A DNA stretch of 64,000 nt. Origin: a virus. Its lineage: Duplodnaviria; Heunggongvirae; Uroviricota; Caudoviricetes. The position numbers and the translations under genes were made by a program. The notes beneath the pieces were generated by a model. That model saw only the letters and a program-made list of their open reading frames with translations. It did no database searches and was not told the DNA's origin. The stretch is from the IMG/VR virus record IMGVR_UViG_3300033233_000007; one strand, given 5' to 3'. This document shows, piece by piece, positions 1-20,802 of the stretch (position 1 is the stretch's first letter; every line of letters starts with the position of its first letter).

Positions 1-494
1 GTGAGACTCTCATCGGGCTTGCGCGCCTTCGTCCTTCGCCTCTTCATGACATCCTCCGTCGCTTTTTGCGTGCTTGATCGCGATCCATTTCTTGCCGAGC
101 GCGAGCATTTGAAAGTCGATGTAGAGCGCCGCCGGCATCGTGATCGTCACGGGTTTGGCGTTGACGACCGTTCGACCTTCCCCTATCCACACCCACTCAG
201 CGGACCTGGGCGCCTTCGTCTTTCGCTTCGTCTTTCGCTTCATCTTCCTCCGTTTCTCTAATCTCTTCTTCCCACGTCGCGCTCTGACTGATGCAGGAGT
301 CGCACGGCTCCCATCGCAGGACGACGCCATAGTTGCCGACGTGCTGGCCGTCCCTGTACAACCGGCACGGCTGCTCGGGGCCCCACACGACATCGCTCTT
401 TTTGTGCTCGTCGAAGCACGGGCTGTCGGCCCGCTCCCATAGCGTGTGATGGTTGCAGAAAAACCAGACCCAGATGCTCTTGACGGTGGACATT

Positions 495-680
495 TTACGC
501 TCCCGCTTTCCTCTGATGCTCGCTCCACTCCTTCAGCTTCACGACCTTGCCGCAGAAACACAAGGCGCGCTTGCCGTCCTTGAGCGGCAGGGCAATGCCG
601 TGGGACCACATGGTCGGTCCGACGATCGCAGACTCGAAGACCGGCCGCTTCGGCGCAGGCGTTTTCGTGGCTTTCTTCAA
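495..680 (-). CDS. small hypothetical protein (61 aa), TTG start
   Basis: ORF preceded by TTTTAGGAGAG RBS. A 50-nt segment is repeated in inverted orientation at 63652-63705. Confidence 0.3.
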   Translation of the reverse strand: MKKATKTPAPKRPVFESAIVGPTMWSHGIALPLKDGKRALCFCGKVVKLKEWSEHQRKAGA

Positions 681-706
681 CGGCGCAATAAGTCTCTCCT
701 AAAATG

Positions 707-944
707 ACCGCGACCCCGACCGCGACCACGACCCCGACCGCGACCACGACCCCGACCGCGACCACGACCGCGACCACGACCGCGACCCCGACCCCGACCA
801 CGACCACGACCCCGACCGCGACCACGACCGCGACCACGACCACGACCCCGACCACGACCACGACCGCGACCACGACCCCGACCCCGACCACGACCACGAC
901 CGCGACCACGACCGCGACCCCGACCGCGACCGCGACCATGACCC
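707..944. repeat. tandem hexanucleotide array (GACCNC)n, about 40 units
   Basis: Direct reading: gaccgcgaccccgaccgcgaccacgacc..., a perfect 6-nt periodicity. Confidence 0.9.
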
Positions 945-964
945 TATCATCATCTGCCCAGGCG

Positions 965-1240
965 TCACTTCACTTCTCTCGGCAGCGGATGCGACCATGG
1001 AGCGACGTCAACAATGGCCTGACGACTGACCGACACGACCCCGGTACCCGGATACGGCTCCACTTCGTCCAGCGTTCCCTTCTCGAGCGCCGCGGCGTAC
1101 CGGCCCGTACTGGCGATCCATGCCGCGGATTTCAGCACGATCTCGGACGGCGACAATAGGGCGATCTCGCCCGTGTAATAGTTCGTCACCGTGCGGATCA
1201 ACACGACGGAACCGACGCGAAGCGGACTGACGATCTTCAT
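965..1240 (-). CDS. hypothetical protein (91 aa) with an inverted duplicate at 63787..>64000
   Basis: Protein MKIVSPLRVGSVVLIRTVTNYYTGE... is identical to the translation of the + strand at the right window end. RBS AGGAGAGGG. Confidence 0.5.
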   Translation of the reverse strand: MKIVSPLRVGSVVLIRTVTNYYTGEIALLSPSEIVLKSAAWIASTGRYAAALEKGTLDEVEPYPGTGVVSVSRQAIVDVAPWSHPLPREVK

Positions 1241-1281
1241 ACCCTCTCCTAAAAACGATTCCTACGAACCCCTATGGCCGC

Positions 1282-2340
1282 TCACGCTCGGCCCTCGGCT
1301 TTCTTCAAAAACTCCAGTCCCAGTTTAGCGAGAACCTCCGCCCTCTCTCCCCCGTACCTCACGGCGTACTGCCTCACGACGACTTCGATCTTCATGGACG
1401 CGTCGATCTTCATTCGGTCCTCGGAAGGCCGCACGACCTTTGGCGTGCTGGCCTGGATCGCAAAACCGCGTGCGCGACGCCTGAGTTCGGCCGTCAGATC
1501 GTCGGCAAGAACTTTCGGAAGCTCCTCGTCGAAAACGATCTGTACGAAGTTGCCGTCGATCGCGGCCATCCCGTCTTCGAGATTGTCTTTCGTGACGCGC
1601 ACAAATTTCGGATAGCCCGACAGCGGCACGAATTCGAGCTTCACCTGTCCGTTGAGTTCGGCGATCCAGAAGCCGCGGTCCTGGCCGACGTCTCCCCACG
1701 TATGCTGAAGCGGAGCGCCAGGAATTAGAAGGTCGATCGGCGAGTCCACGCCCTTCTTGAAGTGACGGTACTTGTGATAATGGCCCGAGATCACGAGGGA
1801 CTTGGCCAGAAGCGGGGCGTCGTCGGGCTTGAGGTCGTGTTCAAACGCGCTCACGAAATACTCGCTCAGTTCCGCGCCGACGATGCCCTGATGGAGGATC
1901 GCAACGTCGGCCGGCCCGTCCTTTGGCAGCGCCTGAGACCCGTAGGGCCGGCCCCAGAACCGCACACCCTCGATCTCTGCGTACTCGTTGTCGAGAATGT
2001 TGAAGCCCACGTCCTGAAGCGCGTTGAGGACGGTGAGGTTCTTCAGCCGCGCGGCCTGATCGTGGTTGCCGTTGACGACGAGGACGGGGATTCCGAGGCG
2101 GCATAGGTCGCGGGCTTCCTTGGCCAGAAGGTCCAGAACGTGAACGTCCATCTTCTGGACGTGGCCGACGTCACCGGCGATGACGACGGCGTCGCACTTA
2201 CGGTCCACGGCGATGCGGCCCAAGTCCTTAAAAACGCGGAGCGTGTCCATGAGACGGCTGTTGAGGCCGGTCTCAGGATCGATGGTACTGAAGGCGGCCC
2301 AGTCATGGACATGGAAATCGCTCCCGGCCAGCAGTCTCAT
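1282..2340 (-). CDS. SbcD/Mre11-like metallophosphoesterase nuclease
   Basis: Calcineurin-like motifs are present: GSDFHVHD, VVIAGDVGH, VNGNHD, ISGHYH. Confidence 0.8.
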   Translation of the reverse strand: MRLLAGSDFHVHDWAAFSTIDPETGLNSRLMDTLRVFKDLGRIAVDRKCDAVVIAGDVGHVQKMDVHVLDLLAKEARDLCRLGIPVLVVNGNHDQAARLKNLTVLNALQDVGFNILDNEYAEIEGVRFWGRPYGSQALPKDGPADVAILHQGIVGAELSEYFVSAFEHDLKPDDAPLLAKSLVISGHYHKYRHFKKGVDSPIDLLIPGAPLQHTWGDVGQDRGFWIAELNGQVKLEFVPLSGYPKFVRVTKDNLEDGMAAIDGNFVQIVFDEELPKVLADDLTAELRRRARGFAIQASTPKVVRPSEDRMKIDASMKIEVVVRQYAVRYGGERAEVLAKLGLEFLKKAEGRA

Positions 2341-2343
2341 CGT

Positions 2344-3354
2344 TTATCTCTTCGGCTCGTCACGGCCTTGAAGGTCCATGACATTCTTAATGGGCTTGAG
2401 AATCTCCGGGTGTTCGAGGAACACGCGCTCCCATTCCGTGTCCTTAAAGGCGTAGTCGCCGAACTTCATCATCGGCGACCCCTCCTCAACCTTGATGCGG
2501 CCGTGGCGGACCAACACTTCCTTCAGGCCGCTGTAGGGCTCGAAGCCCGTGTCGAACTTGAAGCGAAGCGTGGCGTGGCGAAACGGCGGCCCCAGCGCGT
2601 TCTTGATGGCTTCGACCTCCACGAGAATGCCGCTGACGACGCCCGTCGTGGGGCTCGAAATCATGCCTTCCTTCTTGAACATGAGCCGCGCGCTGGCGTG
2701 GTACTTGGGCGCACGGCCGCCGGGGCTGTCCTTGTACGCGAACAACCCGCCGATGTTCATTCGAAGCTGATTGACGCCGATGAACGCCACGTTCTTGCGG
2801 TGCAGTTGACCGAGGATGGCGCGGAAGCTGGCGCTGATGAGCCGGGCCCGCTTGGCCATCTCAGGCTTGCCAGGATCGTAGTCCTCATCAAGCTCCTCGA
2901 TCAGCGGGGTCGCAGCCAGAGAGTCCAACACTACGACCGTCGGAACATCGGGATCGGCAGTCTGGGCGACGCGACCAAGGAGCTTAATCGCCGCTTCCAA
3001 GGACTCGCCGACGCTGTAGCCGATAGCGTCGAAATTAACGCCCATCTTCTCCGCGAAACTTCGGTCCGTCTTGGACTCAGGGTCGATGAGGATGGCTGCG
3101 CCCCCCGCCCGCTGGAACGCGGCGATAGCCGCATAGCAGAAAGCGCTCTTGGCTGTCGACGGGTCGCCAAGGCACTCGATGTACCGTCCGCACGGGATTC
3201 CGTCACCGAGGATGATGTCGATGGCGTGAATCCCCGTGCGGATACACCGTGCGTGCCTGTACTCCTGAAGCTGAGCGATCAGACGGGCCAAGGTCGGCGC
3301 ACTAGGCGCCGCCTTGACCAGTCTGACCTTCTTGGGCTTTTGAGGCTTCCGCAT
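2344..3354 (-). CDS. RecA/RadA-like recombinase (Sak4/UvsX-type)
   Basis: Walker A GDPSTAKS and Walker B VVVLDSLAA. The size and layout are RecA-fold. Confidence 0.7.
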   Translation of the reverse strand: MRKPQKPKKVRLVKAAPSAPTLARLIAQLQEYRHARCIRTGIHAIDIILGDGIPCGRYIECLGDPSTAKSAFCYAAIAAFQRAGGAAILIDPESKTDRSFAEKMGVNFDAIGYSVGESLEAAIKLLGRVAQTADPDVPTVVVLDSLAATPLIEELDEDYDPGKPEMAKRARLISASFRAILGQLHRKNVAFIGVNQLRMNIGGLFAYKDSPGGRAPKYHASARLMFKKEGMISSPTTGVVSGILVEVEAIKNALGPPFRHATLRFKFDTGFEPYSGLKEVLVRHGRIKVEEGSPMMKFGDYAFKDTEWERVFLEHPEILKPIKNVMDLQGRDEPKR

Positions 3355-4221
3355 CTACTTCTTCAAGAAAGTCCTGAGCTTGTCCTTGAGCCGGTCCTCA
3401 AGCTGAGGATTCGCGGGAGCCGAGGACGCCGGCTGAGCCGCAGGCGCAGACTGCGCGGCCGGGGGCGGCAGCGCGGGTTCGTCGTCGGCCGTCTCGACTT
3501 CGTCCTTTCCGCCTTCTTCGGTCAGGGTCTTAGCCGCCATGAAGTCAGAAGCGGGCATTTGACCGGAACAGAAGGCCGCGATCTCCTCGGAGGTCTTCAC
3601 GCGGCCGTTGATGATCTGGTCAAGGTTGTTAAGCCTTTGCAGAACAGTCTTGTCCTTGAGGGGACACGAACCGGCCTCGACGAGGGCGAGATAGTCGGGG
3701 AACGTCTCGCCGTCGCCGGTACGCTTGCTTTTCTTTTCGAGGTTGACGTTGTTACCCTTCTCCGCGTCCTCGAAAGGGAGAATGGCCCCCGTGGAACTAC
3801 CGACCTGCTGACGGCGAAGCTGATGCAAGACCTTCTCCCCGTAGGGATAAATCTTGACGTCGCTCGGGCTGCTAACGACGATGATATTCGAGCACGCCCG
3901 CGACTTGGAGCGCAGCTTGCCCGCAAGCTTCTTGTCGGCCTCGTCCTTCGTATTCCAAAGACCGCGCACGAAATCACAAAGCGTGCAGTGGGCCGCGATC
4001 GTCGCCTTCGGACAAGTGATCGCCACGCGATCCCCCGTCTTCGGGTCGTCGAAATAGTGAACGCCGTATTCCTTGTACCACACGTCCGAGCCGGTCCACG
4101 GCGGGAGAATGCGGATGAGATAGTTGCCGTCCTCTTGCGGCGTCCACCATCCGCGCTCGCGCTCTTCCATGCGCTTCTGCTGCTGCCGGAAGTTCTCCTT
4201 GATCTTATCGTAATTCGTCAT
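3355..4221 (-). CDS. putative ssDNA-binding protein (gp32-like), start at MTNYDK
   Basis: Cys/His zinc cluster CPKATIAAHCTLC and an acidic C-terminal tail. AAGGAG RBS before the ATG at 4221. It sits in the replication block. Confidence 0.4.
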   Translation of the reverse strand: MTNYDKIKENFRQQQKRMEERERGWWTPQEDGNYLIRILPPWTGSDVWYKEYGVHYFDDPKTGDRVAITCPKATIAAHCTLCDFVRGLWNTKDEADKKLAGKLRSKSRACSNIIVVSSPSDVKIYPYGEKVLHQLRRQQVGSSTGAILPFEDAEKGNNVNLEKKSKRTGDGETFPDYLALVEAGSCPLKDKTVLQRLNNLDQIINGRVKTSEEIAAFCSGQMPASDFMAAKTLTEEGGKDEVETADDEPALPPPAAQSAPAAQPASSAPANPQLEDRLKDKLRTFLKK

Positions 4222-4231
4222 CGAACACTCC

Positions 4232-4717
4232 TTAACCCAAATGAAGGTTCTTCTTGATCCTGTCGACCTCGGCAGCGCTGGGAGACGACCCTTCGCCACC
4301 ACGACTCCTGGCCAACTGGACCAGGGTGTCTTTTCTCATGTAAAAGGAATCCCGAAGGACGTTGAGCAGACGCTCGGACTCTTCGGCAATCTGCGCCCGA
4401 TGACACAGGTCGCGATAGGTCTCGTCGGACCGCACAACCGCCTTGATGGCGGCCTCGGTCGGCTTCTTCTTTTCTCCTTCGGTTTTCTCACGCTCGGCGA
4501 CCGACAGCGTATACTCAAGCTCGCTGAGTTCGGCATCAACGCGGACGCGGTGCGACCGCGCACGTTCATGGATCACGGCGAACCACGCGTAGAGCGACGC
4601 CTGCCGCCCCAGTTCGAAGTCAATGTCATCGCGGTCGATCTGAAGCTCTTTGGCGAGGTCGAAATTCAGAGTCTCGTCGCCGACGACGATCTTCAAGACG
4701 TGCGTGCGGTCGGGCAT
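4232..4717 (-). CDS. hypothetical protein (161 aa)
   Basis: ORF lying between the SSB-like gene and the polymerase, on the same strand. Confidence 0.45.
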   Translation of the reverse strand: MPDRTHVLKIVVGDETLNFDLAKELQIDRDDIDFELGRQASLYAWFAVIHERARSHRVRVDAELSELEYTLSVAEREKTEGEKKKPTEAAIKAVVRSDETYRDLCHRAQIAEESERLLNVLRDSFYMRKDTLVQLARSRGGEGSSPSAAEVDRIKKNLHLG

Positions 4718-7700
4718 TACGTGGTCTCCGAAAAAGCCGACTTCAAAGCGGCATGGTAGATGCGAGCAAATTTTCTGACGGCGGACTCGAAGACGGATAG
4801 TTGCGCGGGTTCGCGAAGGACCATGTTCGGGTGAATCGCACCCACGACGAGCGCGCCGGCGTCGGTCTTAAACGTGGAGCCGTTGGCTTTGACGATGCTG
4901 CCTTTGCCGCCCACGGCCTCCCACGCCCGTCTGCCCAGCGCGAGAATCAACGAGGGCTTGATCTCGTCGATCTCCTTCTTGAGCCACGGGCACTCGGGCG
5001 TCTTTTCCTCACCGGCGTAGGGCCGGCACTTGAACGCATTCGAGATGACCAGGTGTTCCCTGTTGATTTTGAGATGCTCGAGCAGAGCCATAATCAGTTC
5101 GCCCGACTCTCCGAGGAGGGGCCTTCCGCGCCGATCCTCCACGCGGCCGGGGTCCTGGCCGACGACCATAACGTTCCACTTCCCGACCTCGACGGGCACG
5201 GGGGCGCGACAGAATTTCCTGCGGTCGCATTGGGTGCAGAGCTTCGTCTCTTCGGCGAGCATGGGCACGCGCTTGGCCGGCCGGATTTGAGGAAGCACGC
5301 GGTCGGCGCCCGTCGCGGCGTCGATAAGGCCGCCGGGCAGCTTTCTGAGCTTGAGCCGATCTTTGAACTCGTAGTAATTCTGGTAAGGCCCGTGCGACGA
5401 GCGCTCATCGAAGATGCCTTTAGCGAAGGCCGCCGTGACGCCGGGGATGTCGAGCAGGGCTCGGCGGACGCCGCCGTTTTGCGGCGTCCAGAAAATGTCG
5501 GAGTGGTTGAAGCTGAAGGGCAGAACCTCAACGCCCATTTCCTCCATCTCGTCGAGAAGCTGGCGTTTCATTTCATCGCCCTTCTTGTTCTCCTTGTCTT
5601 CGGCGACGTTAAGCGCGGAGGCGTAAAGGTCGAGCGTGCGATGGCGCTTAAGCCAGCCGATCTGATAAGCCAAGAGCGAGTAGGCCGTGGCGTGGCTTTT
5701 GTTGAACGAATAACGCCCCATCCCCTCAAGCTGATCCCACAGCGCCGCGCCCTCTTCCGCCGTCAGCGTCTTTTGCCGCAGACATCCTTCGACGAACTTG
5801 CTCTTCCATGCAGCGAACGATTGCGCGCCCGTGAGCTTCTTGGCAATGGATTTTCGGACGCCGTCGGCCTCCGTCCACGAGAAGCCGGCGACGCGCGTGC
5901 ACAGCATCATCACGTCTTCCTGGAAGACAATCAACCCGGCAGGGTCCTCGTGATAGCGGTTGGCGAGGCCCGCGGGGTCCGTCTGGCCGAGCCCGCCGGG
6001 ACGGAAGGCCGCATTCGCGAACACCGTGTCTTCGAACTTCGCAGGCTTGAGCATCATGAGAAACGCCTTCATCCCCGACGTGGAGAATTGCGGCGTACCT
6101 GCGGTGCGGCCTTCGGAGAAGTCCGTATAGACGGCGGCATCATCGAGCGGAATCATCGCCAGCGCGCTCTCGAAAGGGGCGAGGATGTCCAGCGTACTGT
6201 TGCCCAGAAGGTCGATCTTCAGATGGCCGATGTCGTCGGCGTCCTGAAGGTCCCAGCAAAGCAGGCCGTTGACCATGTAGCCGCGACCGAGCCCATTTAT
6301 GGGAGAACTGGAAATTACGAATCCACCGGCGTGCGCCCCGGTCTGACGGACTTTCCCGACGAGGCGGTTGGCAAATTCGGCCGCGAGCGTACTGAGCTTT
6401 CGAAGCTCGGCCACGACGGGATGGCCGTCGAGCGTCTTTCGTTCGTCTTCGGCCCAATCCGTTTCCTCATCAGGGTCGTGAAGCTTCACATTTTTCTCAA
6501 GGTCCTTGAGCACGCCGTAAGTGCGGGCCGCGTCGCGGGCGGCTTGGCGAACGCCGTACTTCGAGTACGTCGCGATCTGGGCCACGCGCTCGGCGCCGAA
6601 GACCTCGCTGAGAATTTCGGGAACGCGTCGGCGCACGGCCACAGGCAGATCGAGGTCGACGTCAGGGAGAGAGCCGACTCGTCCTGGGGCGTAGAACCTT
6701 TCGAATATGAGGTCGTGCCTGATGGGATCGAGAATCGAAATGCCCAGAAGGTGCGCCACGAGGCAGCCGCCGACGGAGCCGCGGGGGCCCACGAGCGCCC
6801 CACGCTTCTTGAACTCGTCGACGACTTTCTGCACGAGCAGCAGATACTCCGCGAGGCCGGCTTCGATGAGCGTCTTAAGCTCGTACTCCGCACGGTCGTA
6901 GTATTTCGGTTTGTCGGGGACATTGAGCTTCGAGAGCGCGGCGTCGACGCGTTCGATGAGCACCGTATTAGGATCATCGCAGACCTTGGCGATGGGCAGA
7001 CGGTCGTGCGGGAGGTCCGTGATCTCGCAGCGGTCGGCGATCTCCGCTGTCGTGGCGATGGCGCGAACGGCTTCGTCTTCGGTCAGGCCCGCCTTTTGCA
7101 GGTGCTCGTAGATTTCGCCCGGCGTCATGAGGTAGCTCATCTTCGTCGAGAACTTCCACGCCTTGGGGTCGTCGATGGCCTTCAGATCGGCCACGGCCAA
7201 GAGCGCGTCGTGGAAGGGCTTGTCGGTGGCGCACGCGAAGTGGCAGTCAACGCTCGCCGAAATGGGCCGGTTGAAGTGATCGGCCAACTGGACGACGATG
7301 CGGTTGAGCTTGATCTGCTCGTCCCAGTCGTCGACGGGCATGACCTCGAAATAGAAATCATCGCCGTAGGCCTTGACGAAGGGCTCAAGGTCGTCGATGG
7401 CTTTCTCCGATTTCCAAAACGGTGAACTGTAGCAGCCGGAAAGGACGACGAGACCCGAGCCAGCAGCTTCAAGCACCTTCGCCAGCGGCACGGTCAGGCG
7501 CTTGAGGCGCTTCTTTTCGATGACGCCGGAGCCGAGGATAGAGGAAAGGGCGGCGAAGCCCTTCAAGTCGCGGCAGAGGACCGTGAGGTGGAAAATTTTA
7601 TCGCCGTCATAGGCCGTCGTAACGTAAAGCTCGCACCCCAAAATCGGCTTGATGCCGGTCTTGCGGCAGGAGGCGATGAAGCGGGGGATGCCGCTGATCG

Positions 7701-7827
7701 AGCCGTGGTCCGTGATGGAGCAGGCCGAGAAGCCCGCCGCCTTAGCGAGTGTCGGAAGCTCGTCTACGCGGATCAGGCTGTCGCGGTAGCTGTGATCCGT
7801 GTGGGCGTGTAAGAGCGCGATGTTCAC
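4717..7827 (-). CDS. dnaE: DnaE-type DNA polymerase III alpha (PHP + polymerase core) fused to a C-terminal family-4 uracil-DNA glycosylase domain
   Basis: N-terminal PHP segment MNIALLHAHTDHSY. DnaE core motifs GPRGSVGGCLVAHLLGISILDP and AHAGGFVIS. The C-terminal 150 aa carry a CxxC cluster, GQDPG, GRPLLGESGELI and HPN, which are UDG4-like. Confidence 0.85.
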   Translation of the reverse strand: MNIALLHAHTDHSYRDSLIRVDELPTLAKAAGFSACSITDHGSISGIPRFIASCRKTGIKPILGCELYVTTAYDGDKIFHLTVLCRDLKGFAALSSILGSGVIEKKRLKRLTVPLAKVLEAAGSGLVVLSGCYSSPFWKSEKAIDDLEPFVKAYGDDFYFEVMPVDDWDEQIKLNRIVVQLADHFNRPISASVDCHFACATDKPFHDALLAVADLKAIDDPKAWKFSTKMSYLMTPGEIYEHLQKAGLTEDEAVRAIATTAEIADRCEITDLPHDRLPIAKVCDDPNTVLIERVDAALSKLNVPDKPKYYDRAEYELKTLIEAGLAEYLLLVQKVVDEFKKRGALVGPRGSVGGCLVAHLLGISILDPIRHDLIFERFYAPGRVGSLPDVDLDLPVAVRRRVPEILSEVFGAERVAQIATYSKYGVRQAARDAARTYGVLKDLEKNVKLHDPDEETDWAEDERKTLDGHPVVAELRKLSTLAAEFANRLVGKVRQTGAHAGGFVISSSPINGLGRGYMVNGLLCWDLQDADDIGHLKIDLLGNSTLDILAPFESALAMIPLDDAAVYTDFSEGRTAGTPQFSTSGMKAFLMMLKPAKFEDTVFANAAFRPGGLGQTDPAGLANRYHEDPAGLIVFQEDVMMLCTRVAGFSWTEADGVRKSIAKKLTGAQSFAAWKSKFVEGCLRQKTLTAEEGAALWDQLEGMGRYSFNKSHATAYSLLAYQIGWLKRHRTLDLYASALNVAEDKENKKGDEMKRQLLDEMEEMGVEVLPFSFNHSDIFWTPQNGGVRRALLDIPGVTAAFAKGIFDERSSHGPYQNYYEFKDRLKLRKLPGGLIDAATGADRVLPQIRPAKRVPMLAEETKLCTQCDRRKFCRAPVPVEVGKWNVMVVGQDPGRVEDRRGRPLLGESGELIMALLEHLKINREHLVISNAFKCRPYAGEEKTPECPWLKKEIDEIKPSLILALGRRAWEAVGGKGSIVKANGSTFKTDAGALVVGAIHPNMVLREPAQLSVFESAVRKFARIYHAALKSAFSETT

Positions 7828-7833
7828 TCACAA

Positions 7834-7852
7834 AGCTATAGTAGTCAGGGCA
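7834..7852 (-). promoter_or_regulatory. phage-type (T7-like) promoter motif CCCTGACTACTATAG, reverse copy facing dnaE
   Basis: Reverse complement of the recurring motif, about 10 nt upstream of the dnaE start at 7827. Confidence 0.5.
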
Positions 7853-7920
7853 TCCGCGTTCACGCCCGAGATTCTGAAAATAGTTCAACGAGTTTCGGAT
7901 TTGCGGCCGCGAACATGGAA

Positions 7921-7937
7921 GGGCCGACTACTATAGC
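7921..7937 (+). promoter_or_regulatory. phage-type promoter motif GGGCCGACTACTATAG
   Basis: Resembles ssRNAP promoters (T7 CGACTCACTATAG). It lies 8 nt upstream of the ATG at 7945. Confidence 0.5.
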
Positions 7938-7944
7938 TAAATAG

Positions 7945-9342
7945 ATGGAGATCGTCGTCGACAACGTCCTGAGCTACGTGAATGGCACGAAAGACGAATA
8001 CCGCGCCCTCGACAAGCTCCTGGCCGTGGAAGTCAAAAACGCATTCTGGATCAAGCAGCATACGCCTCAGTTCGACGGCATGTGGCACGCCTTCAACCGC
8101 CTTCGCGGCAGCTTTCCGACGGGACTGATCGGGCGCGTGCGGAAGGGGTTCCCCCTCGCCAAAATTCATGACCGCCGCGTGAAGCCACGGATCATCATGC
8201 AACCGAAACCCGACATGCTCAAGACGATAACGCTGGCGGACTTTCAACTGGACGCGATCACGGCGGCACTTCATCACGGGCGCGGCGTGCTGGCCTTGGC
8301 CGTGAATTCCGGCAAGAGCGCGTGTGCCACGGCGATTTCGCTCTGCGTCGCCGGCCGCACGCTCTGGCTCGTCCACCGCAAGGACCTCATGTACCAATCG
8401 GCGGAAATGTACGAGCAGTACACGGGGCAGAAACCCGCGCGGTTCGGCGACCACATCTACGAGGATATCACGACCCGCGCCGTCACCATCGCCATCGTCC
8501 AGGCTATCAATCTGGCGCTCGACGGTCAGAAAAATATGCTCGAGGGCTTCTCGACACTCATACTCGACGAGGGGCACGCACTAGGGCCCCCTAAGCGTTT
8601 TTATAAAGTCGCGCAGTTCTGCCCCGCTTACGTCAGGATCGCCATGAGCGGTACACCTTGGAACCCAAAAGACCCCGAGCGCAATCTCAAGCTCGAGGCG
8701 ACGACGGGGCCCGAAATCGCCAAGATTAAATCCTCCAAGCTCATCGAGATCGGATGGAGCGCGCGGCCGACAATGTTCTACCACGACGGCTTCGGCGGCG
8801 CCCGCAGCTTCGGACCATGGGCCGAGGCGCGACGCACGGTCATCGAAGACTGCCCGAACCGTAATCGCATTGTCCTGGCCGTCGCGCGCAAAGCCGCAGA
8901 GGAGGGCAAGGCGTGCCTTATCATGTGCGACACGATCCGCCATTGTCGCATGATCTGCGATCACCTCGTCGAACTCAATCTCGACGCAAAGCTCGTCACA
9001 GGCCAGCATAAGGGAAAAGACCGCGTCGAGGTCCGGCAGAACTTCCGCGCGGGCATCGTACCGATCGTCGTTTCGAGCCCAACTTGGGACGCCGGAATTA
9101 GCATAGAAAATATCAGAATTCTCGTCATCGCCGCCGGAGGCGAGTCCGCCCAGCGCTATCTGCAACGCGTGGGCCGCGGCATGCGTATCATGAAAAATAA
9201 AACCGCCGTCGAAATCCACGACTTCGTCGACGGCGGCTCCAAGCACACGCTCAAGCACACGATCTCGCGGATCAAGACGGCGCGAGACGAGGGCTTCGAG
9301 ATCGTCGAGGTCGATCATTCCAAGGAGACGGCCAATGCCTGA
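7945..9342 (+). CDS. SF2 DNA/RNA helicase (DEGH box)
   Basis: Motifs AVNSGKS, LILDEGH, SGTP and QRVGRGMR. Confidence 0.8.
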   Translation: MEIVVDNVLSYVNGTKDEYRALDKLLAVEVKNAFWIKQHTPQFDGMWHAFNRLRGSFPTGLIGRVRKGFPLAKIHDRRVKPRIIMQPKPDMLKTITLADFQLDAITAALHHGRGVLALAVNSGKSACATAISLCVAGRTLWLVHRKDLMYQSAEMYEQYTGQKPARFGDHIYEDITTRAVTIAIVQAINLALDGQKNMLEGFSTLILDEGHALGPPKRFYKVAQFCPAYVRIAMSGTPWNPKDPERNLKLEATTGPEIAKIKSSKLIEIGWSARPTMFYHDGFGGARSFGPWAEARRTVIEDCPNRNRIVLAVARKAAEEGKACLIMCDTIRHCRMICDHLVELNLDAKLVTGQHKGKDRVEVRQNFRAGIVPIVVSSPTWDAGISIENIRILVIAAGGESAQRYLQRVGRGMRIMKNKTAVEIHDFVDGGSKHTLKHTISRIKTARDEGFEIVEVDHSKETANA

Positions 9343-9682
9343 GTTCGACGGAAAGCTTCAGGACAACGAGGTCCTCCAGAGACTCGTCAGAAGCGTCATC
9401 GCGTCCATGAAAAGCGGCACGGCCACGTGCATCCTCTGCCGGCGCACACTCCCGAAGAGCACGGGCGTCTGCGGCGCGTACTTCCCGAACCGCGACGTCG
9501 TCACCGTCAAGGGGCCGGCCTACAGGATCAGCGCCTACGCCATGTGCGACGACTGTATCGACGCCAAGGGTATTGAAGAGGCGACGCGAAAGGCCACGCA
9601 GGAACTCGTCGCCGGCGGCGTGTTCCTCGATCGCACGATGTCGTCGGAACCGCGGGCGCTCGGTTTCCCGGAGGGGGCGTGA
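9335..9682 (+). CDS. hypothetical Cys-containing protein
   Basis: ORF overlapping the neighbouring start and stop codons. Confidence 0.4.
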   Translation: MPEFDGKLQDNEVLQRLVRSVIASMKSGTATCILCRRTLPKSTGVCGAYFPNRDVVTVKGPAYRISAYAMCDDCIDAKGIEEATRKATQELVAGGVFLDRTMSSEPRALGFPEGA

Positions 9683-11625
9683 TGGACGACGACCTCAAGA
9701 TCGACCGCATCTTGGCCCCCGGCGGCCTCGTGGCGCAGAAGCTTCCGGGCTACGAAGCCAGAGCCGGGCAGATCGAGATGGCCGTCGCCGTTGAACAGGC
9801 GCTGAAGGCGCAGAAGCATCTCGACATCGAAGCTCCTTGCGGCGTCGGCAAAACCTTCTCATACCTCCTGCCGCTCATCCTCGAGTGCGCCGAGAACAAG
9901 AAGACGGCCGTCGTGTGCACGGCCAACATCGCCCTTCAAGAGCAGTTGATAGACAAGGACTTGCCGTTCCTGAAGAAAATCCTGCCCGTCCCGTTCACGT
10001 ACACGCTCGCCAAAGGAATGGGCAACTACCTCTGCCTCGACCGGCTCCACCACGCGCGCGACAGCAGCCACGAACTTTCCGACGAAGCCGTGGAAGAACT
10101 CCGGGGCCTCGACGACTGGACCGTCAAGACCCAGGACGGCGACAAGAGCGAGATCGCGCTCAAGAGCGACCTGTGGCCCGCGATCTCCGGCAACTCCGAC
10201 CTCTGTAACGGTCGGCGCTGCGACGACTACGTGCCCTGCTTCATCATGAAAGCGCGCCGCACGTTCAAGACCGTGCACGTCGTCATCTGCAACTACCATC
10301 TCTTCTTCGCCAACGCGTCCATCCGCATGGAGTCGGGGCTTGAAGACCCGATCCTGCCCGAGTTCGACTACGTCGTCTGCGACGAAGCGCACGAAGCGGC
10401 CGACATCGCCCGAGACTACTTCGGCCTGAACCTCAAGCGCGGGTCCGTGAAGTTCCTCAAGCGCGCGGATAAGTACCTCGGCGATGCCGACCTCATGCAG
10501 CGGATCGGCAGCGCCAACGCCGAATTTTTCGACTCGGCCGAGACGTTCCTGAAGAACTCCAGAAACAAGAAGTGCTCCCGCTTCACCGCGCCCGGAACGC
10601 TCAAAGGCGACGGACTTGCCGCGGCCGTTTCGGAGTACGCGGAGAAAACCGAAGCCATGTTCGAAGGCACGTCGAAAGACGATAAGGAAAAGCGAGGGGC
10701 GCTGGAGAAGTGCATGCTGGCCGCCCACAGAATCGCCGGCGCTGCCGAAGGGTTCATGACGCTCGAGAACACGAACATGACGTACTTCGTGGAGGAAAGC
10801 GATGGGCGCATTAGCGTGCGGTCGAAGCTCATCGACGTGGGGGCTGTCCTGAAATCCGAACTTTTCGACCGCGCCAAGTCCGTCATCTCCACGTCCGCAA
10901 CGCTCACCGACGTCGGCAAGTCCTTCAGCTACTTCGACCGCGAACGTGGGAAGGTGCAGGGCGAGCGGCAGATCGTCGAATCGCCCTTCAACTTCAAAAA
11001 ACAGTGCCTGATCGTCACGCCAAACCTGGGCATCGTCGACCCGAACGCACCCGGCTTCGTCGAAGGCATGGCCGCCGTCATCAGCCACGTCATCACGGAA
11101 CTTGACGGCCGGACGATGTGCCTGTTCACGTCGTACAAGAACCTCAAAGCCTGCGCCGAGATCGCCAAGCGCAGCACCGACATCGAAATCCTGCAACAGG
11201 GCGACGCGCCGCGGATGAAGCTTCTGGAACGGCTCAAGACCGCGGGCCGCGGTGTCGCGCTCTTCGGCACGGACAGCTTCTGGCAGGGCGTCGATGTTCC
11301 GGGCCAGGCGCTGTCGTGCCTGACGATCGACAAGATTCCGTTCGAGCCGCCCGACGACCCCGTGCTGCAGGCCATGGGCGAACGGGACGCCGGGCTGTTC
11401 ATGAACGTATCGCTGCCGCGGGCCACGATCAAGCTGCGTCAGGGCTTCGGCCGGCTGATCCGAACGCTCACGGACGTCGGCGCCGTCGTGCTTTTCGACC
11501 CCCGCCTGCTCGTGAAACCGTACGGGAAACGAATCCTCACAAGCTTGCCCGAGTGCCGACTCACCGCCGACGTGGAGGAAATCTTCGCGCTCGTGCCGCC
11601 TGTTGAGGTAAAAGAAAAGGCGTGA
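9679..11625 (+). CDS. DinG/XPD(Rad3)-family ATP-dependent helicase
   Basis: Walker A CGVGKT, a DEAHE box and Fe-S cysteines CLDR...CNGRRC...C. Confidence 0.8.
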   Translation: MMDDDLKIDRILAPGGLVAQKLPGYEARAGQIEMAVAVEQALKAQKHLDIEAPCGVGKTFSYLLPLILECAENKKTAVVCTANIALQEQLIDKDLPFLKKILPVPFTYTLAKGMGNYLCLDRLHHARDSSHELSDEAVEELRGLDDWTVKTQDGDKSEIALKSDLWPAISGNSDLCNGRRCDDYVPCFIMKARRTFKTVHVVICNYHLFFANASIRMESGLEDPILPEFDYVVCDEAHEAADIARDYFGLNLKRGSVKFLKRADKYLGDADLMQRIGSANAEFFDSAETFLKNSRNKKCSRFTAPGTLKGDGLAAAVSEYAEKTEAMFEGTSKDDKEKRGALEKCMLAAHRIAGAAEGFMTLENTNMTYFVEESDGRISVRSKLIDVGAVLKSELFDRAKSVISTSATLTDVGKSFSYFDRERGKVQGERQIVESPFNFKKQCLIVTPNLGIVDPNAPGFVEGMAAVISHVITELDGRTMCLFTSYKNLKACAEIAKRSTDIEILQQGDAPRMKLLERLKTAGRGVALFGTDSFWQGVDVPGQALSCLTIDKIPFEPPDDPVLQAMGERDAGLFMNVSLPRATIKLRQGFGRLIRTLTDVGAVVLFDPRLLVKPYGKRILTSLPECRLTADVEEIFALVPPVEVKEKA

Positions 11626-12677
11626 AAGCGTACTACAACGACAACGACCCCTACGTCTGCGCGTGGATCAGCAATCTCATCAAGGCAGGAGAAATATCGC
11701 ATGGCGACGTCGACGACCGGCCGATCCAGAAAATCCGGCCAAAAGACCTCGATGGCTACGTCCAACATCACTTTTTCGCGGGCATCGGCGGCTGGGCGCT
11801 CGCGCTCAAACTCGCGGGATGGCCGGACGACCGGCCGTGCTGGACCGGCTCTCCGCCCTGCCAACCGTTCTCGACGGCGGGCAAGCGTAAAGGATTCACC
11901 GACAAGCGCCATCTCTGGCCGGCGTGGTTCCGGCTCATCCGCAGGTGCCGCCCTGGCATTATTTTTGGCGAACAGGTTGGAAGCAGGGACGGCCTTGCCT
12001 GGCTCGATCTTGTTTCGCGTGACCTGGAAAGAACGAGTTACGCCATCGGGGCGCTCGATCTCTGCGCTGCGGGCGCAGGCGCTCCGCACATTCGTCAACG
12101 GCTGTACATCGTGGCCGACTCCGCGCACGCCGACGGGCGGACCCGAAAGCGCCAAGCGCAAGAAAGAACTTGGGCGGAAGAACTCGGGAGGAGGCGATCT
12201 TCAGGCGGCGGCGCTTCTGACCGGATGGCCAAGTCCGATGGCGGGTTCGCCCGCGTCAAAAAAGTACAACGAGGCGGGCAACAACGACAGCAGCCGCAGG
12301 ACCGTATCTCTAGCGAGATGGAACTCTCCGCGAGCGACAGACGGGGGGCGACCCCCACGGCGAGCGAGAAGGTGCGATCCCACCCGGAAATTTCTGGAAG
12401 GGCGAACGCCGAACGCCCGCGAAGCAGCGGCTTCTGGTCCGACGCCGGATGGCTCCTCTGCCGCGACGGCAAGTACCGGCCCGTCCCTCTTGCTGAATCC
12501 GAAGTTCTCGGCGTGGCTCCAAGGATTCCCTCCGGCGTGGGACAGGCTTGCCCCGAAAGGTTCCCCGTCACGGGGAAGACGCCGAGGCGCATCGCACGTC
12601 TGAGGGGCTTCGGAAATTCAATCGTTCCTCCACTCGCCGCCGAATTCGTAAAGGCGTACATGGAACTGAAGCCGTGA
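11622..12677 (+). CDS. DNA (cytosine-5) methyltransferase
   Basis: Motif I FAGIGG, motif IV PCQPFS and a C-terminal GNSIVPP. Confidence 0.8.
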   Translation: MKAYYNDNDPYVCAWISNLIKAGEISHGDVDDRPIQKIRPKDLDGYVQHHFFAGIGGWALALKLAGWPDDRPCWTGSPPCQPFSTAGKRKGFTDKRHLWPAWFRLIRRCRPGIIFGEQVGSRDGLAWLDLVSRDLERTSYAIGALDLCAAGAGAPHIRQRLYIVADSAHADGRTRKRQAQERTWAEELGRRRSSGGGASDRMAKSDGGFARVKKVQRGGQQRQQPQDRISSEMELSASDRRGATPTASEKVRSHPEISGRANAERPRSSGFWSDAGWLLCRDGKYRPVPLAESEVLGVAPRIPSGVGQACPERFPVTGKTPRRIARLRGFGNSIVPPLAAEFVKAYMELKP

Positions 12678-12757
12678 GAAAGATCGTCCTCGATCTCTGC
12701 GCTGGCATGGGTTCGTGGTCCCTCCCGTACGCGGAGGCGTTTTTTTGAGGCCAACAC

Positions 12758-13342
12758 GTGAAGTACGTGATCGTCGACTTGGAAGCCGCGTGCTGGCGGG
12801 CCGAACGTCCTGAAGACGCCGCACGTGTCGCCGAATACCAACACGAGCATTCCGAGATCATCGAGATCGGCGCCGTGAAGTTGGGTGGGAAAGACGCTAC
12901 GGATGACGAGTTCGACAGCTTCGTTAAGCCCACGATCGTGCCCACGCTCTCCGACTTTTGCATGAAGCTGACCACGATATCGCAGGAGGACGTCGACACG
13001 GCACCGATCTTTCCCGTCGTTTTCGCCGACTTCGTCAGCGGACTCGAGGACGTGGAAAGCACGATCCTGTGCTCGTGGGGACAGTATGATTGGGACATGC
13101 TCAAGAAGGAGTGCGACCGTTACGGGATCGTCTTCCCATTCGTCCACCACGTCAACGTGAAGGAACGCTTTATGCAGAAGTACGGAGGCAAACACGTCGG
13201 TGTACAGAAGGCGCTCAGGAAGCTTGGGATGATAAAGGAACTCAGGAAGCTCGGCCTGACCTTCACCTTCACGGGTATCCCTCATCGTGGCATCGACGAC
13301 GCTCGTAACATCGTCACGATCTTCAAGGCCCTCGGCGGCTAA
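12758..13342 (+). CDS. DEDDh 3'-5' exonuclease (DnaQ-like)
   Basis: Exo motifs VDLEA, EIIEIGAV and HRGIDDA. Confidence 0.75.
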   Translation: MKYVIVDLEAACWRAERPEDAARVAEYQHEHSEIIEIGAVKLGGKDATDDEFDSFVKPTIVPTLSDFCMKLTTISQEDVDTAPIFPVVFADFVSGLEDVESTILCSWGQYDWDMLKKECDRYGIVFPFVHHVNVKERFMQKYGGKHVGVQKALRKLGMIKELRKLGLTFTFTGIPHRGIDDARNIVTIFKALGG

Positions 13343-13459
13343 GGGGAGCCCACACGGTAACGAGGTGGTGCGTGGCGGGGTCTTTTACGCCCCCGACGGA
13401 GGAGGGGCCCTGAAAACAACTTCTACTAAGGATACTTATATAGATGGAGTGAAAGGGGA

Positions 13460-13500
13460 GATGGTGCACACACGCACCAAATGTGCGTGTGTGCACCATC
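13460..13500. repeat. perfect 18-bp-stem palindrome (GATGGTGCACACACGCAC caaat GTGCGTGTGTGCACCATC)
   Basis: Direct reading of the sequence. Confidence 0.9.
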
Positions 13501-13539
13501 TAAAAGGGAGACCTTCGAAATCTCTTCAAAAACACGGTT

Positions 13540-14388
13540 TTGCAAAATCCACGAGCGTGTGTCTTGACTCTCTACCAGGGAAGACGTAAAGTGATCTCGC
13601 TACCACGATGCTTAACTCCCACGATCCGTGCCGGCGCCCTCACTTTAGCGTCGTTGGTAGCACTTCACGTCAGTATGAGGCCCGGCGCGGTTCATGGGAG
13701 TTTGGAGGCGTGCGTGAAAGCGATACCGCTTACGCAGGGCAAGTTCGCGTGGGTAGATGATGCGGACTTTGAGAAGTTGTCGACGCTCAAGTGGGGCGCC
13801 TTAAAAGGCAGGCGCTACTGCTGGTACGCGAGGCATGTCGTGAAGATGGGTCAGAAAATCGGCGCAGTCTTGATGCACCGAATGATCTTGAGCGCTCCCT
13901 CGGGTTTCGAAGTTGACCACATCGACGGAGACGGGCTGAACAACACGCGAAAAAATTTGCGGCTTTGCACCAGTTCGCAAAATAAGCACAACTTTCCTAA
14001 GTTTCGCAACGGGTCGTCAAGGTACAAGGGCGTCTCGTGGAGCAAGCATTCTAAAAAGTGGAATGCTCAGATCGTGCGCCGCCATCTCGGGCTCTTCTCC
14101 AACGAACGTGCCGCTGCCCGTGCGTATGATAAGGCGGCCATGAAGATGTTCGGCAAGTTCGCCAGAGTGAATTTTAACGGGCCGTTGAAGACGGGTCCGA
14201 CCGCCAAGCAGTTCGAGCGGGAGGCACGCCGCTATGATTTGGCGGCTCGGTTCGCCATATCAAAACATGACGGAAGTCGGTTTTGTTCTTACGCTCGAGA
14301 GCTTCGTAGGCAGGCGAAGATCGTGTGTGGATCGAAGCCTTTAGCGCCCATGAAGACATTTTTCCGGGAAACTAGACGGAAAACTTGA
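13540..14388 (+). CDS. HNH-AP2 homing endonuclease (true start probably the GTG/ATG near 13717)
   Basis: HNH_3 segment IPLTQGKFAWVDDADF...VDHIDGDGLNNTRKNLRLCTSSQN. AP2 segment YKGVSW...AARAYD. Confidence 0.75.
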   Translation: MQNPRACVLTLYQGRRKVISLPRCLTPTIRAGALTLASLVALHVSMRPGAVHGSLEACVKAIPLTQGKFAWVDDADFEKLSTLKWGALKGRRYCWYARHVVKMGQKIGAVLMHRMILSAPSGFEVDHIDGDGLNNTRKNLRLCTSSQNKHNFPKFRNGSSRYKGVSWSKHSKKWNAQIVRRHLGLFSNERAAARAYDKAAMKMFGKFARVNFNGPLKTGPTAKQFEREARRYDLAARFAISKHDGSRFCSYARELRRQAKIVCGSKPLAPMKTFFRETRRKT

Positions 14389-14494
14389 TCGCGTGTCGTC
14401 ATGACGATATCCTTTGCACCCGTGGGAACCTTGGTAGTAGAATCATTCAGCCCCCGCCGCCGGTTCGTCTCGCCACTAGGGTTCACCCACACAC

Positions 14495-14520
14495 GGCCAG
14501 GGGGCCTTTTTATTTCATGG
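14495..14520 (+). terminator. possible intrinsic terminator (GGCCAGGGGGCC followed by TTTTTATTT)
   Basis: GC hairpin followed by a T-run, after the HNH gene. Confidence 0.4.
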
Positions 14521-14527
14521 TGATGGC

Positions 14528-15406: not shown

Positions 15407-15436
15407 TCTGAACGGTCTTTTTTCTGGAGAGAGAAG

Positions 15437-17392: not shown

Positions 17393-17483
17393 AAAAAGAA
17401 CCGTGATGAACTACAGTAGTCTTCTCTCTCCAGAGCCGGCGAGGAATGCGCGACCGCCATATCCCTTCCTGCCGGTGCGCCTC

Positions 17484-20799: not shown

Positions 20800-20802
20800 T
20801 GT

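What the first reader, a model, noticed from the sequence alone, without database searches (positions are those of the whole stretch)
453..1260. Window ends carry an inverted duplicated gene and a short inverted segment
The 91-aa ORF at 965-1240 (minus strand) encodes the same protein, residue for residue, as the partial ORF at 63787-64000 (plus strand), including the TTTTTAGGAGAG RBS. A second segment of about 50 nt (615-665) is about 85% identical to the reverse complement of 63652-63705. Between the two blocks the left copy has the 240-bp hexamer array and the right copy has only about 60 bp containing the phage promoter motif. This fits inverted terminal repeats of a linear replicon, a large invertible segment, or an assembly collapse or expansion of a terminal repeat.
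Basis: seen in the sequence. Interest (0 to 1): 0.7.

Follow-up and report, generated by a model that had tools for sequence, protein, structure and literature searches.

The report
Inverted duplicate of a phage Sm-like gene
The two ends of this window carry two real, oppositely oriented copies of a small phage gene with an Sm-like (RNA-binding type) fold; they bracket the phage's 62.5-kb replication and early-gene block inside a larger genome and are not the ends of a linear replicon.

Summary
Window 1026-1255 (-) and 63770-64000 (+) are 96% identical, and all 71 comparable residues match. The only coding differences are six synonymous changes within 19 nt.

The ITR reading fails. A second assembly of the same phage runs about 80 kb past the left copy. 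The replication genes are DnaE, a primase-helicase, RecA and gp32, not a protein-primed set.

The left copy is derived. Five relatives have SbcC after SbcD. Here homology to the closest relative stops 7 nt into the gene, at a shared TTTTTAGGAGAGG..ATGAAGA motif.

The second 50-nt block is real but is not mirror-symmetric with the gene.

Both ends of the 62.5-kb block join the same end of an 81-kb contig by the same 141 nt, so what follows the right copy is unresolved. The window's right edge is probably a contig end caused by the repeat. Inversion of the block is possible but untested.

The parts
965..1240 (-). Left copy of the duplicated gene (91 aa, Sm/LSm-like fold). It is the last gene of the DnaE-gp32-RecA-SbcD operon as it stands here.
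63786..64000 (+). Right copy of the same gene. The first 71 codons plus 2 nt lie in the window; the ORF is cut by the window edge.
   Evidence: 71 of 71 residues identical. ENA contig L161 adds 22 further nt identical to the left copy.
1145..1163 (-). Left version of the 19-nt patch (gene nt 78-96) that holds all six coding differences, all synonymous.
63863..63881 (+). Right version of the same 19-nt synonymous patch.
1243..1255 (-). TTTTTAGGAGAGG ribosome-binding motif before the left copy. Together with ATGAAGA it forms the microhomology at which homology to the closest relative (L181) ends.
   Evidence: L181 aligns to window 2868 down to 1234.
63770..63782 (+). The same TTTTTAGGAGAGG motif before the right copy. 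This is the 5' limit of the repeat.
   Evidence: The 11-mer TTTTAGGAGAG occurs only three times in the 64 kb.
699..968 (-). An 89-aa ORF translationally coupled to the left copy: its GTG start overlaps the copy's TGA stop. A short leader is followed by (Ser-[Trp/Arg/Gly])n, encoded by the hexamer array at 706-944.
   Evidence: The same arrangement occurs in 147 of 160 metagenome and viral loci and in all 17 further loci.
608..656 (-). Left member of the second homology block. It is the 5' part of the 61-aa ORF 495-680 (or 45 nt upstream of, plus the ATG of, the 38-aa gene called in the ENA contig).
63648..63710 (+). A 20-codon ORF (MPESAPKRPIFESAVIGPSM*) that contains the right member of the second block (63660-63708). 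Its ATG overlaps the stop of the zinc-ribbon gene 63425-63655.
63711..63762 (+). Phage promoter-like element (..GAACGC.GATG.CC.GACTACTATAG) directly upstream of the right copy.
   Evidence: Copies at window 7846 (-), 7926 (+), 43595 (+), 63744 (+), and at L163 3993 and 7510.
1282..2340 (-). SbcD-like nuclease gene. In five relatives it is followed by SbcC; here it is followed by the left copy.
   Evidence: Pfam Metallophos. Relatives L181-L185. No SbcC homolog in the window or in L163.
1256..63769 (.). The 62.5-kb block bracketed by the two copies. It holds replication genes, methyltransferases, two TnpB genes, 28 tRNA genes and many small genes. Transcription diverges from about 7.9 kb outward into both copies.
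   Evidence: It equals ENA contig k141_4033767 (63,019 bp), which ends at gene nt 237 of each copy.

Best explanation
These are two genuine paralogous copies of one small phage gene, in inverted orientation and 62.5 kb apart. They sit inside a large phage genome of at least about 144 kb that is rich in tRNA genes.

The gene encodes a 91-aa protein with an Sm/LSm-like fold. It is the first gene of a widespread two-gene module. Its partner is a translationally coupled ORF whose hexamer array encodes (Ser-[Trp/Arg/Gly])n.

The right copy has its own phage promoter and an ancestral-looking context. The left copy is derived. It was joined to the end of the SbcD gene by recombination within a shared TTTTTAGGAGAGG..ATGAAGA motif (ribosome-binding site plus start). 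This replaced the SbcC-containing continuation of the operon that relatives have.

Shown: both copies exist, each has its own flank, the proteins are identical, the breakpoint lies at the motif, the left copy is internal, and the module is conserved.

Inferred: the right window edge is a contig end caused by the repeat. The repeat could support homologous (RecA-type) or recombinase-mediated inversion of the 62.5-kb block. Such an inversion would swap which operon reads into the module's downstream genes without changing the gene's product.
For: Repeat statistics and codon comparison.

The same phage occurs in a second assembly. Contig A (63,019 bp) equals window 1004..64000 plus 22 nt. Contig B (81,259 bp) starts at gene nt 97 and runs through the array and the window's first 964 nt. 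All are 100% identical to the window.

Breakpoint: L181 (SbcD 86% identical) aligns to window 2868 down to 1234 and then continues into a 164-aa gene and SbcC. The other four relatives (L182-L185) also have SbcC within 0-2 genes after SbcD, and none of the five has an Sm-like gene or array within the up to 10 kb of flank retrieved.

The TTTTAGGAGAG motif occurs only three times in the window.

Family: 2,021 clusters at E <= 1e-3, with no Pfam, PHROG or NCBIfam hit.

Module.

Four relatives have an N6/N4-methyltransferase homolog upstream on the same strand, as the right copy does. None has SbcD or RecA next to the gene.

Duplication of this gene recurs: tandem copies in L018, L032, L081 and L113, and fused two-domain proteins such as P0013 and P0014.
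Against: The source contig (125,798 bp) could not be retrieved, so nothing beyond gene nt 237 of the right copy was seen.

In the ENA assembly both ends of contig A overlap the same end of contig B by exactly k = 141, and contig B is unbranched for 81 kb. A simple pair of paralogs with two different 3' flanks predicts a branch that is not there. It would have to have been pruned or left unassembled.

The ENA assembly may come from the same reads as the JGI contig. If so it is an independent assembler, not an independent sample.

The clustered synonymous patch has no explanation.

SbcC was not found, so part of the genome is unaccounted for.
Confidence: 0.7

Rival explanations
1. The 62.5-kb block is an actively invertible (flip-flop) segment. 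Recombination between the two gene copies, either homologous or by the nearby 210-aa tyrosine recombinase, gives two co-existing isomers. This would resemble the IR-flanked ~30-kb region of Anabaena cyanophages.
For: Inverted repeats of at least 253 nt flank the block. The phage encodes RecA. A tyrosine recombinase with only the catalytic domain lies 1.4-2.0 kb beyond the left copy. It gives a weak full-length match to FimB/E-type invertases (E = 8e-5, below cut-off). Both ends of the block are transcribed outward into the repeats, so either orientation keeps transcription co-directional. The recombinase-bearing block is inverted relative to the SbcD operon compared with L183 and L185. A precedent with 400-700-nt repeats exists.
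Against: No reads were available, so no second orientation was seen. Flip-flop in a circular or permuted genome predicts two outer flanks for the repeat, but the ENA graph shows one. No serine invertase appeared among the roughly 50 window proteins scanned. Each SNP patch is still linked to one flank in both assemblies.
Confidence: 0.25
2. The repeat is much longer than the gene. The whole 81-kb contig B (gene 3' part, array and downstream genes) is present twice in inverted orientation on both sides of the 62.5-kb block. This would be an arm replacement giving giant inverted arms, with the SbcC arm deleted.
For: The assembly graph fits exactly. Both ends of A join one end of B by the same 141-mer, and B is unbranched. 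The left junction is a non-reciprocal joint: the parental P-gene junction is kept, the SbcD-SbcC junction is lost, and SbcC is absent from the window and from the first 10 kb of B.
Against: It implies a genome of about 225 kb with 81-kb inverted repeats, which has no precedent known to me in phages. It needs zero differences over 81 kb while the first 96 nt of the repeat carry six. An intact SbcD (86% identical to the relative's) argues that its partner SbcC still exists somewhere. Coverage was not available.
Confidence: 0.12
3. One of the two copies lies at or next to a physical end of a linear genome, or next to a second array that assemblers cannot cross. In that case nothing, or only unassembled repeat, follows it.
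For: Both assemblies stop in the right copy at (last SNP + k): nt 237 for k = 141 and nt 215 for k of about 119/120. 26 of 92 related contigs of at least 10 kb end within 700 nt of the homolog, against 4.1 expected, and most of those ends lie inside the hexamer array. Arrays differ in length among near-identical contigs (L021, L023, L024: 152, 144, 158 nt).
Against: A repeat longer than k explains the stop by itself. The left array was assembled without trouble. In longer related contigs the module is internal. A physical end cannot be seen without reads.
Confidence: 0.3
4. Assembly artefact: there is a single locus, and the second copy was created by mis-joining or by strain mixing.
For: Metagenomic origin. 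The repeat sits at a contig edge. The two assemblies may share reads.
Against: The two haplotypes of nt 78-96 are each within about 100 nt of different unique flanks, which is shorter than k and read length. Both junctions are reproduced by a second assembler. A two-strain mixture would also show the SbcD-SbcC and promoter-SbcC junctions as branches, and contig A has none at either end.
Confidence: 0.04

Closest known systems
IR-flanked ~30-kb invertible region of Anabaena cyanophages A-1(L), N-1, Elbi and others (bioRxiv 10.64898/2026.02.14.705889)
   Same: A large segment of a tailed-phage genome is bracketed by inverted repeats a few hundred nt long. No dedicated invertase has been shown. 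tnpB genes lie inside the segment in both cases (A-1(L) there; 29681-30898 and 44783-45994 here).
   Different: In those phages both isomers were shown by PCR and read mapping, and the repeats are 400-700 nt. Here the segment is twice as long. The repeat is exactly a protein-coding gene starting at its ribosome-binding site. Only one outer flank is visible, and isomers are untested.
Site-specific invertible segments (Mu G/Gin, P1 C/Cin, fimS/FimB-FimE)
   Same: Inverted repeats flank the segment, and a small recombinase gene lies nearby.
   Different: Those segments are 0.3-4 kb with 9-34-bp crossover sites and a dedicated invertase next to the repeat. Here the segment is 62.5 kb with repeats of at least 253 nt. 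The recombinase matches invertase models only weakly and below cut-off.
Inverted terminal repeats of protein-primed linear phages and plasmids (phi29, PRD1, Cp-1)
   Same: Two inverted copies of the same sequence lie far apart on the map.
   Different: The copies here are not at molecule ends. No terminal protein or family-B polymerase was seen, and replication genes are DnaE-type. The repeat is a complete expressed gene.
Phage LSm-like fold proteins (T4 GoF, MotB.1, Frd.2; PMC12152347), cellular Sm/LSm/Hfq, and phage Sm-fold proteins in the BFVD library
   Same: A small beta-barrel with an Sm-like fold in an early or middle phage gene. The BFVD hits include an 'Sm-like domain' protein and an 'RNA binding protein' of Gordonia phage Reyja.
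   Different: There is no sequence match to Pfam LSM or Hfq, or to any PDB sequence. The helix lies between strands 3 and 4 rather than at the N-terminus. The obligatory (Ser-[Trp/Arg/Gly])n partner ORF is not reported for any of these. The Arg/Gly tails of eukaryotic SmD1, SmD3 and LSm4, and the RS domains of SR proteins (from my own knowledge, not tested here), are only an analogy.
Chloroplast LSC-IR-SSC assembly-graph topology
   Same: A single-copy region joins one end of another contig by both of its ends in inverted orientation.
   Different: In plastids the 'stick' is a proven two-copy repeat with a second loop at its far end. Here the copy number and far end of the 81-kb contig are unknown.

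Membership tests
Inverted terminal repeats of a linear replicon | The repeats lie at the physical ends of the molecule. | tested here: not met
   The left copy has 964 nt of window and about 80 kb of ENA contig k141_1337675 beyond it. The right end could not be tested.
Inverted terminal repeats of a linear replicon | Protein-primed replication genes (terminal protein, family-B polymerase), or a protelomerase for hairpin ends. | tested here: not met
   The polymerase has PHP, DNA_pol3_alpha and UDG domains. RepB-primase/AAA_25, RecA, gp32 and SbcD are present. None of the roughly 50 scanned proteins is a family-B polymerase or a protelomerase. Contig B beyond 10 kb was not seen.
Invertible DNA segment (site-specific or homologous flip-flop) | The segment is bracketed by inverted repeats. 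| tested here: met
   At least 253 nt, 96.4% identical, with the last 141 nt or more identical.
Invertible DNA segment (site-specific or homologous flip-flop) | A dedicated invertase lies next to a repeat. | tested here: inconclusive
   A 210-aa tyrosine recombinase at L163 1433-2065 is XerA/C/D-like. Its match to 'tyrosine-type DNA invertase' NF007371 scores 22 bits against a cut-off of 222. No serine recombinase was found among the scanned window proteins.
Invertible DNA segment (site-specific or homologous flip-flop) | Both orientations are present in the population. | not testable with these tools
   This needs reads or PCR. The two assemblies are compatible with either orientation.
Sm/LSm/Hfq superfamily | Sm fold (strongly bent five-stranded beta-sheet). 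| tested here: met
Sm/LSm/Hfq superfamily | Sm1/Sm2 sequence motifs, that is, a match to the family profiles. | tested here: not met
   No Pfam, NCBIfam or PHROG hit. No PDB sequence hit at E <= 1.
Sm/LSm/Hfq superfamily | Ring oligomer that binds RNA. | not testable with these tools
   Only single-chain prediction was possible. Fused two-domain family members are compatible with oligomers but are not proof.
Assembly artefact (collapsed or expanded repeat) | The two copies are indistinguishable, or the junctions are unsupported. | tested here: not met
   Six fixed differences are linked to distinct flanks, and the same junctions appear in a second assembly.

The most novel reading that the evidence does not exclude
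The duplicated gene and its partner ORF form a previously undescribed, widespread phage ribonucleoprotein-type module. It would pair an Sm-like ring protein with a separately translated, disordered (Ser-[Trp/Arg/Gly])n tail protein encoded by a fast-evolving hexamer array. In this phage, two inverted copies of the Sm-like gene would serve as recombination arms that flip the 62.5-kb replication and early block. Flipping would switch which operon (the DnaE operon or the promoter at 63744) drives the repeat protein and the downstream genes.
Probability: 0.15. Interest if true: 0.8.

Novelty: new variant of a known kind. Interest (0 to 1): 0.5.

Why it matters
For the finding itself: it shows that a pair of repeats that looks terminal in a metagenomic phage contig can be an internal gene duplication. 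It dates the event against relatives and pins the joint to a 20-nt motif made of a ribosome-binding site and a start codon. It also flags a candidate for very large (62.5 kb) inversion isomerism in a phage, a phenomenon only recently shown experimentally at about 30 kb.

Beyond the finding: the duplicated gene turns out to be the conserved partner of the hexamer arrays. These arrays are translated into Ser-Trp/Arg/Gly repeat proteins in hundreds of uncultured phages and prophages. They also explain why assemblies of these phages so often break there. Neither the protein family (about 2,000 clusters) nor the repeat ORF matches any of the annotation resources I searched.

Tried and rejected
- The source contig could not be fetched. 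Exact-protein look-ups of the 91-aa protein and of P0001 returned nothing. A DNA pattern scan of the viral contigs found nothing. The metagenome and viral scans returned only relatives of 64% identity or less.
- Look-ups of the 61-aa ORF and of the antisense 151-aa ORF across the array were not on record.
- A cluster look-up of the truncated products was empty.
- blastn of the window's first 3 kb against 50,697 phage records found no match. tblastn of the 91-aa protein found one metagenomic record at 44% identity.
- A scan of the viral contigs for close SbcD relatives found none.
- The 240-aa gene near the right end has no homologs besides itself, so the right flank could not be compared with relatives.
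- Text searches for the repeat peptide or DNA strings returned zero papers. General searches on hexanucleotide or dipeptide repeats in phages gave nothing relevant.
- The AlphaFold-database fold library was unavailable.
- A RiPP-like reading of the leader-plus-repeat ORF was considered and set aside, because no modifying enzymes are conserved next to the module.
- Reading the array in the gene's own frame as (Gly-Arg)n, like SmD1 tails, was rejected. Other phages' units (GGAGCN, GGTCAN, GGTCTN) change that residue, while the Ser-X frame is conserved with all six Ser codons.
- A reciprocal inversion at the motif was rejected, because the promoter-gene junction is retained on the right.
- A two-strain mixture was rejected, because contig A has no branches at its ends.

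Full report
**Observation**

A self-comparison of the window finds one strong inverted match. Window 63770-64000 (+) matches 1255-1026 (-) over 231 nt at 96.1% identity, E = 2.7e-104. A second short match joins 608-656 to 63708-63660, at 89.8% over 49 nt, E = 2.4e-10.

The right ORF starts at 63786. Its 71 complete codons translate to exactly the first 71 residues of the 91-aa ORF at 965-1240 (-). Both copies are preceded by TTTTTAGGAGAGG.

The coding differences lie at gene nt 78, 81, 84, 85, 87 and 96, and all are synonymous. Six uniformly placed changes would span 19 nt or less with P = 2.6e-5. Six random substitutions would all be silent with P = 3.8e-4.

I add one correction. Along the gene's own strand the left order is gene, then hexamer array, then short block. 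The right order is short block, then promoter, then gene. The two homology blocks are therefore not one contiguous inverted unit that differs by an indel.

**Where the window sits**

The window has 60% G+C and looks like phage DNA. Positions 1-7827 are read leftward: a DnaE-type polymerase with a UDG domain, a gp32-like protein, RecA and an SbcD-like nuclease. Positions 7945-64000 are read mostly rightward. They include helicases, a primase-helicase, C5 and N6/N4 methyltransferases, two TnpB genes, an intein-bearing HerA-like ATPase and 28 tRNA genes.

A protein 100% identical to the 91-aa product is on record from a JGI contig of 125,798 bp. I could not retrieve that contig.

Look-ups of neighbouring window proteins found the same phage in ENA assembly ERZ27248239. 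Three facts follow from the alignments.
- Contig k141_4033767 (63,019 bp) is 100% identical to the window over both stretches retrieved (window 12340-1004 and 53125-64000) and adds 22 nt after 64000; its length equals the span from 1004 to 64022. It runs from gene nt 237 of the left copy to gene nt 237 of the right copy.
- The 22 extra nt match the left copy.
- Contig k141_1337675 (81,259 bp) begins at gene nt 97, the first base after the last SNP. It runs through the rest of the gene, the array and the window's first 964 nt. It then continues about 80 kb beyond the window's left edge.

The left copy is therefore deep inside a genome of at least about 144 kb. The ITR reading fails on position and also on gene content.

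**The assembly-graph puzzle**

Both ends of the 63-kb contig overlap the same end of the 81-kb contig by exactly k = 141 (gene nt 97-237). The 81-kb contig is unbranched.

Two paralogs with different 3' flanks should produce a branch where their identity ends. In that case the 81-kb contig would start later than nt 97. Three explanations remain.
- The right copy's own continuation was pruned or never assembled.
- One copy is followed by a physical end.
- The 81-kb contig is present twice in inverted orientation.

The first is plausible. Among relatives, 26 of 92 contigs of at least 10 kb end within 700 nt of the homolog, against 4.1 expected, mostly inside the hexamer array. Near-identical contigs also carry arrays of different lengths.

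The third fits the graph exactly. However, it implies about 225 kb with 81-kb perfect repeats next to a repeat start that has six differences in 19 nt.

The window ends at gene nt 215, which is 96 + 119. The ENA contig ends at 96 + 141. I infer that the window's right edge is the end of the source contig, caused by the repeat in an assembly with k of about 119-120. This is an inference, not a shown fact.

**Which copy is derived**

SbcD homologs were found on five other contigs, and their surroundings were fetched. In all five the operon runs DnaE, gp32, RecA, SbcD, zero to two genes, then SbcC, then one to four genes, and then meets a convergent block. None has the 91-aa gene or an array within the up to 10 kb retrieved on each side.

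The closest relative is L181, whose SbcD is 86% identical. It aligns to window 2868 down to 1234 at 85.7% nt identity. The alignment runs through SbcD, the intergenic spacer, CGTTTTTAGGAGAGG and ATGAAGA. It then diverges into a 164-aa gene followed by SbcC.

The two window copies share sequence from TTTTTAGGAGAGG onward. The 11-mer TTTTAGGAGAG occurs only three times in the 64 kb: before each copy and at the end of the array ORF.

The left junction is thus a derived joint made within a microhomology of 13 + 7 nt. It replaced the SbcC arm. No SbcC homolog is present in the window or in the first 10 kb of the 81-kb contig.

The parental promoter-gene junction is retained on the right, so the event was duplicative and not a reciprocal inversion.

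The right copy looks ancestral on two counts. It has its own promoter-like element. Like four relatives, it also has an N6/N4 methyltransferase homolog upstream on the same strand.

The 210-aa tyrosine recombinase 1.4 kb beyond the left copy is homologous to 166-aa recombinases in the convergent block of L183 and L185. Relative to the SbcD operon, that block is inverted in the arrangement seen here.

**What the gene is**

No Pfam, PHROG or NCBIfam model matches it.

A profile search of 1.84 billion representatives finds 2,021 clusters at E <= 1e-3. Some are fused two-domain proteins. Tandem gene duplicates also occur. Among deposited phage records only one metagenomic genome carries a homolog. 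MAG hits include an Acidimicrobiia contig at 62% identity.

**The array is the partner gene**

147 of 160 related loci, and all 17 further loci, carry a period-6 array next to the gene.

The unit differs between phages: GGTCGN, GGAGCN, GGTCAN, GGTCTN, GGTCCN or GGAGTN. It is always NGG plus a serine codon, and all six serine codons occur as the dominant one. The other position is TGG, GGG, CGG or AGG in about 95% of units.

The Ser-X frame is open. In 63 of 102 cases it starts with an ATG or GTG that overlaps the Sm-like gene's stop. It opens with a conserved leader (M-N-x-A-x-L-R-x-G-[YF]-[DE]) and ends in a stop after 30-130 residues.

In the window this ORF is 699-968 (-), 89 aa.

I found no description of this ORF or of its association with the gene.

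**Mechanism and verdict**

Shown:
- There are two real inverted paralogs.
- The left copy is internal.
- The left joint is derived and lies at a defined microhomology.
- The module is conserved.

Inferred:
- The repeat stopped both assemblers.
- The inverted repeats of at least 253 nt, in a phage with its own RecA, could invert the 62.5-kb block. IR-flanked segments of about 30 kb do this in Anabaena cyanophages.
- Both ends of the block are transcribed outward into identical coding sequence. Inversion would therefore leave the gene product unchanged and would swap the upstream operon that feeds the repeat ORF and the downstream genes.

Unresolved:
- What follows the right copy.
- Where SbcC is.
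- Why the only differences form a silent 19-nt patch.

Noticed in passing
window 699-968 (-); loci L001-L160 and L164-L180: The 240-bp hexamer array is a translated ORF: a conserved 12-aa leader followed by (Ser-[Trp/Arg/Gly])n. It is translationally coupled to the Sm-like gene. The pair is conserved in 147 of 160 loci plus all 17 further loci. All six Ser codons are used across phages, but usually only one within a given array.
   Followed up: yes
window 1145-1163 and 63863-63881: All six coding differences between the copies are synonymous and fall within 19 nt (codons 26-32). The left version has two GATC sites, the right has one, and the right gains a GCGC. No explanation was found; gene-conversion tract, recoding or RNA structure are all possible.
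   Followed up: partly
related loci, e.g. L009, L025, L111, L134, L136, L137, L147, L149 (3' side) and L001, L007, L008, L010, L011, L020 (5' side): Contigs of related phages end inside or next to the hexamer arrays far more often than chance (26 of 92 against 4.1 expected). Near-identical contigs (L021, L023, L024; L032, L034) carry arrays of different length. The arrays appear to be hypervariable and to break assemblies.
   Followed up: partly
window 1282-2340 (-): An intact SbcD-like nuclease gene has no SbcC partner anywhere in the window or in the next 10 kb. All five relatives have SbcC within 0-2 genes after it.
   Followed up: partly
window 34919-39446 (-): A block of 28 tRNA genes interspersed with HNH endonuclease genes. 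It includes tRNA-Arg(CCG) and tRNA-Arg(CCT), which read the CGG and AGG codons that dominate the repeat ORFs. No tRNA-Trp or tRNA-Gly was found.
   Followed up: no
window 7846 (-), 7926 (+), 43595 (+), 63744 (+); L163 3993 and 7510: A conserved promoter-like element of about 45 nt (GAATCTCG..CG.GAACGC.GATG.CC.GACTACTATAG), reminiscent of single-subunit RNA polymerase promoters. Two divergent copies sit between the DnaE operon and the helicase gene.
   Followed up: partly
window 29681-30898 (+), 44783-45994 (-), 30785-30915 and 51621-51751: Two TnpB (OrfB_IS605/Cas12f-like) genes. A 131-nt inverted match (84% identical) joins the 3' end of the first TnpB to an intergenic site at 51.6 kb. This may be a solo element end or a guide-RNA remnant.
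   Followed up: no
window 47222-49915 (+): An 897-aa protein with a weak, sub-threshold HerA-like ATPase match, interrupted by a LAGLIDADG domain. It is probably an intein.
   Followed up: no
window 495-701 (-): The repeat ORF's TAG stop (699-701) is followed in the same frame by the 61-aa ORF, so read-through of one stop would fuse them. The five differences in the second homology block fall mostly in one codon phase: V/I swaps in the ORF's frame, or four silent changes in the +1 frame.
   Followed up: no
proteins P0013, P0014, P0017, P0026, P0146: Some family members are single polypeptides with two Sm-like domains. This suggests that paralog pairs work together, in the manner of hetero-oligomeric rings.
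   Followed up: partly
L163 1433-2065 (beyond the window's left edge); L183 16009-16509; L185 15666-16166: A small tyrosine recombinase (166-210 aa) with only the catalytic domain is conserved in this phage group, near where the replication operon meets the convergent block.
   Followed up: partly
window 13459-13501 and 35070-35107: Two short near-perfect palindromes (38-44 nt, self-inverted BLAST hits).
   Followed up: no
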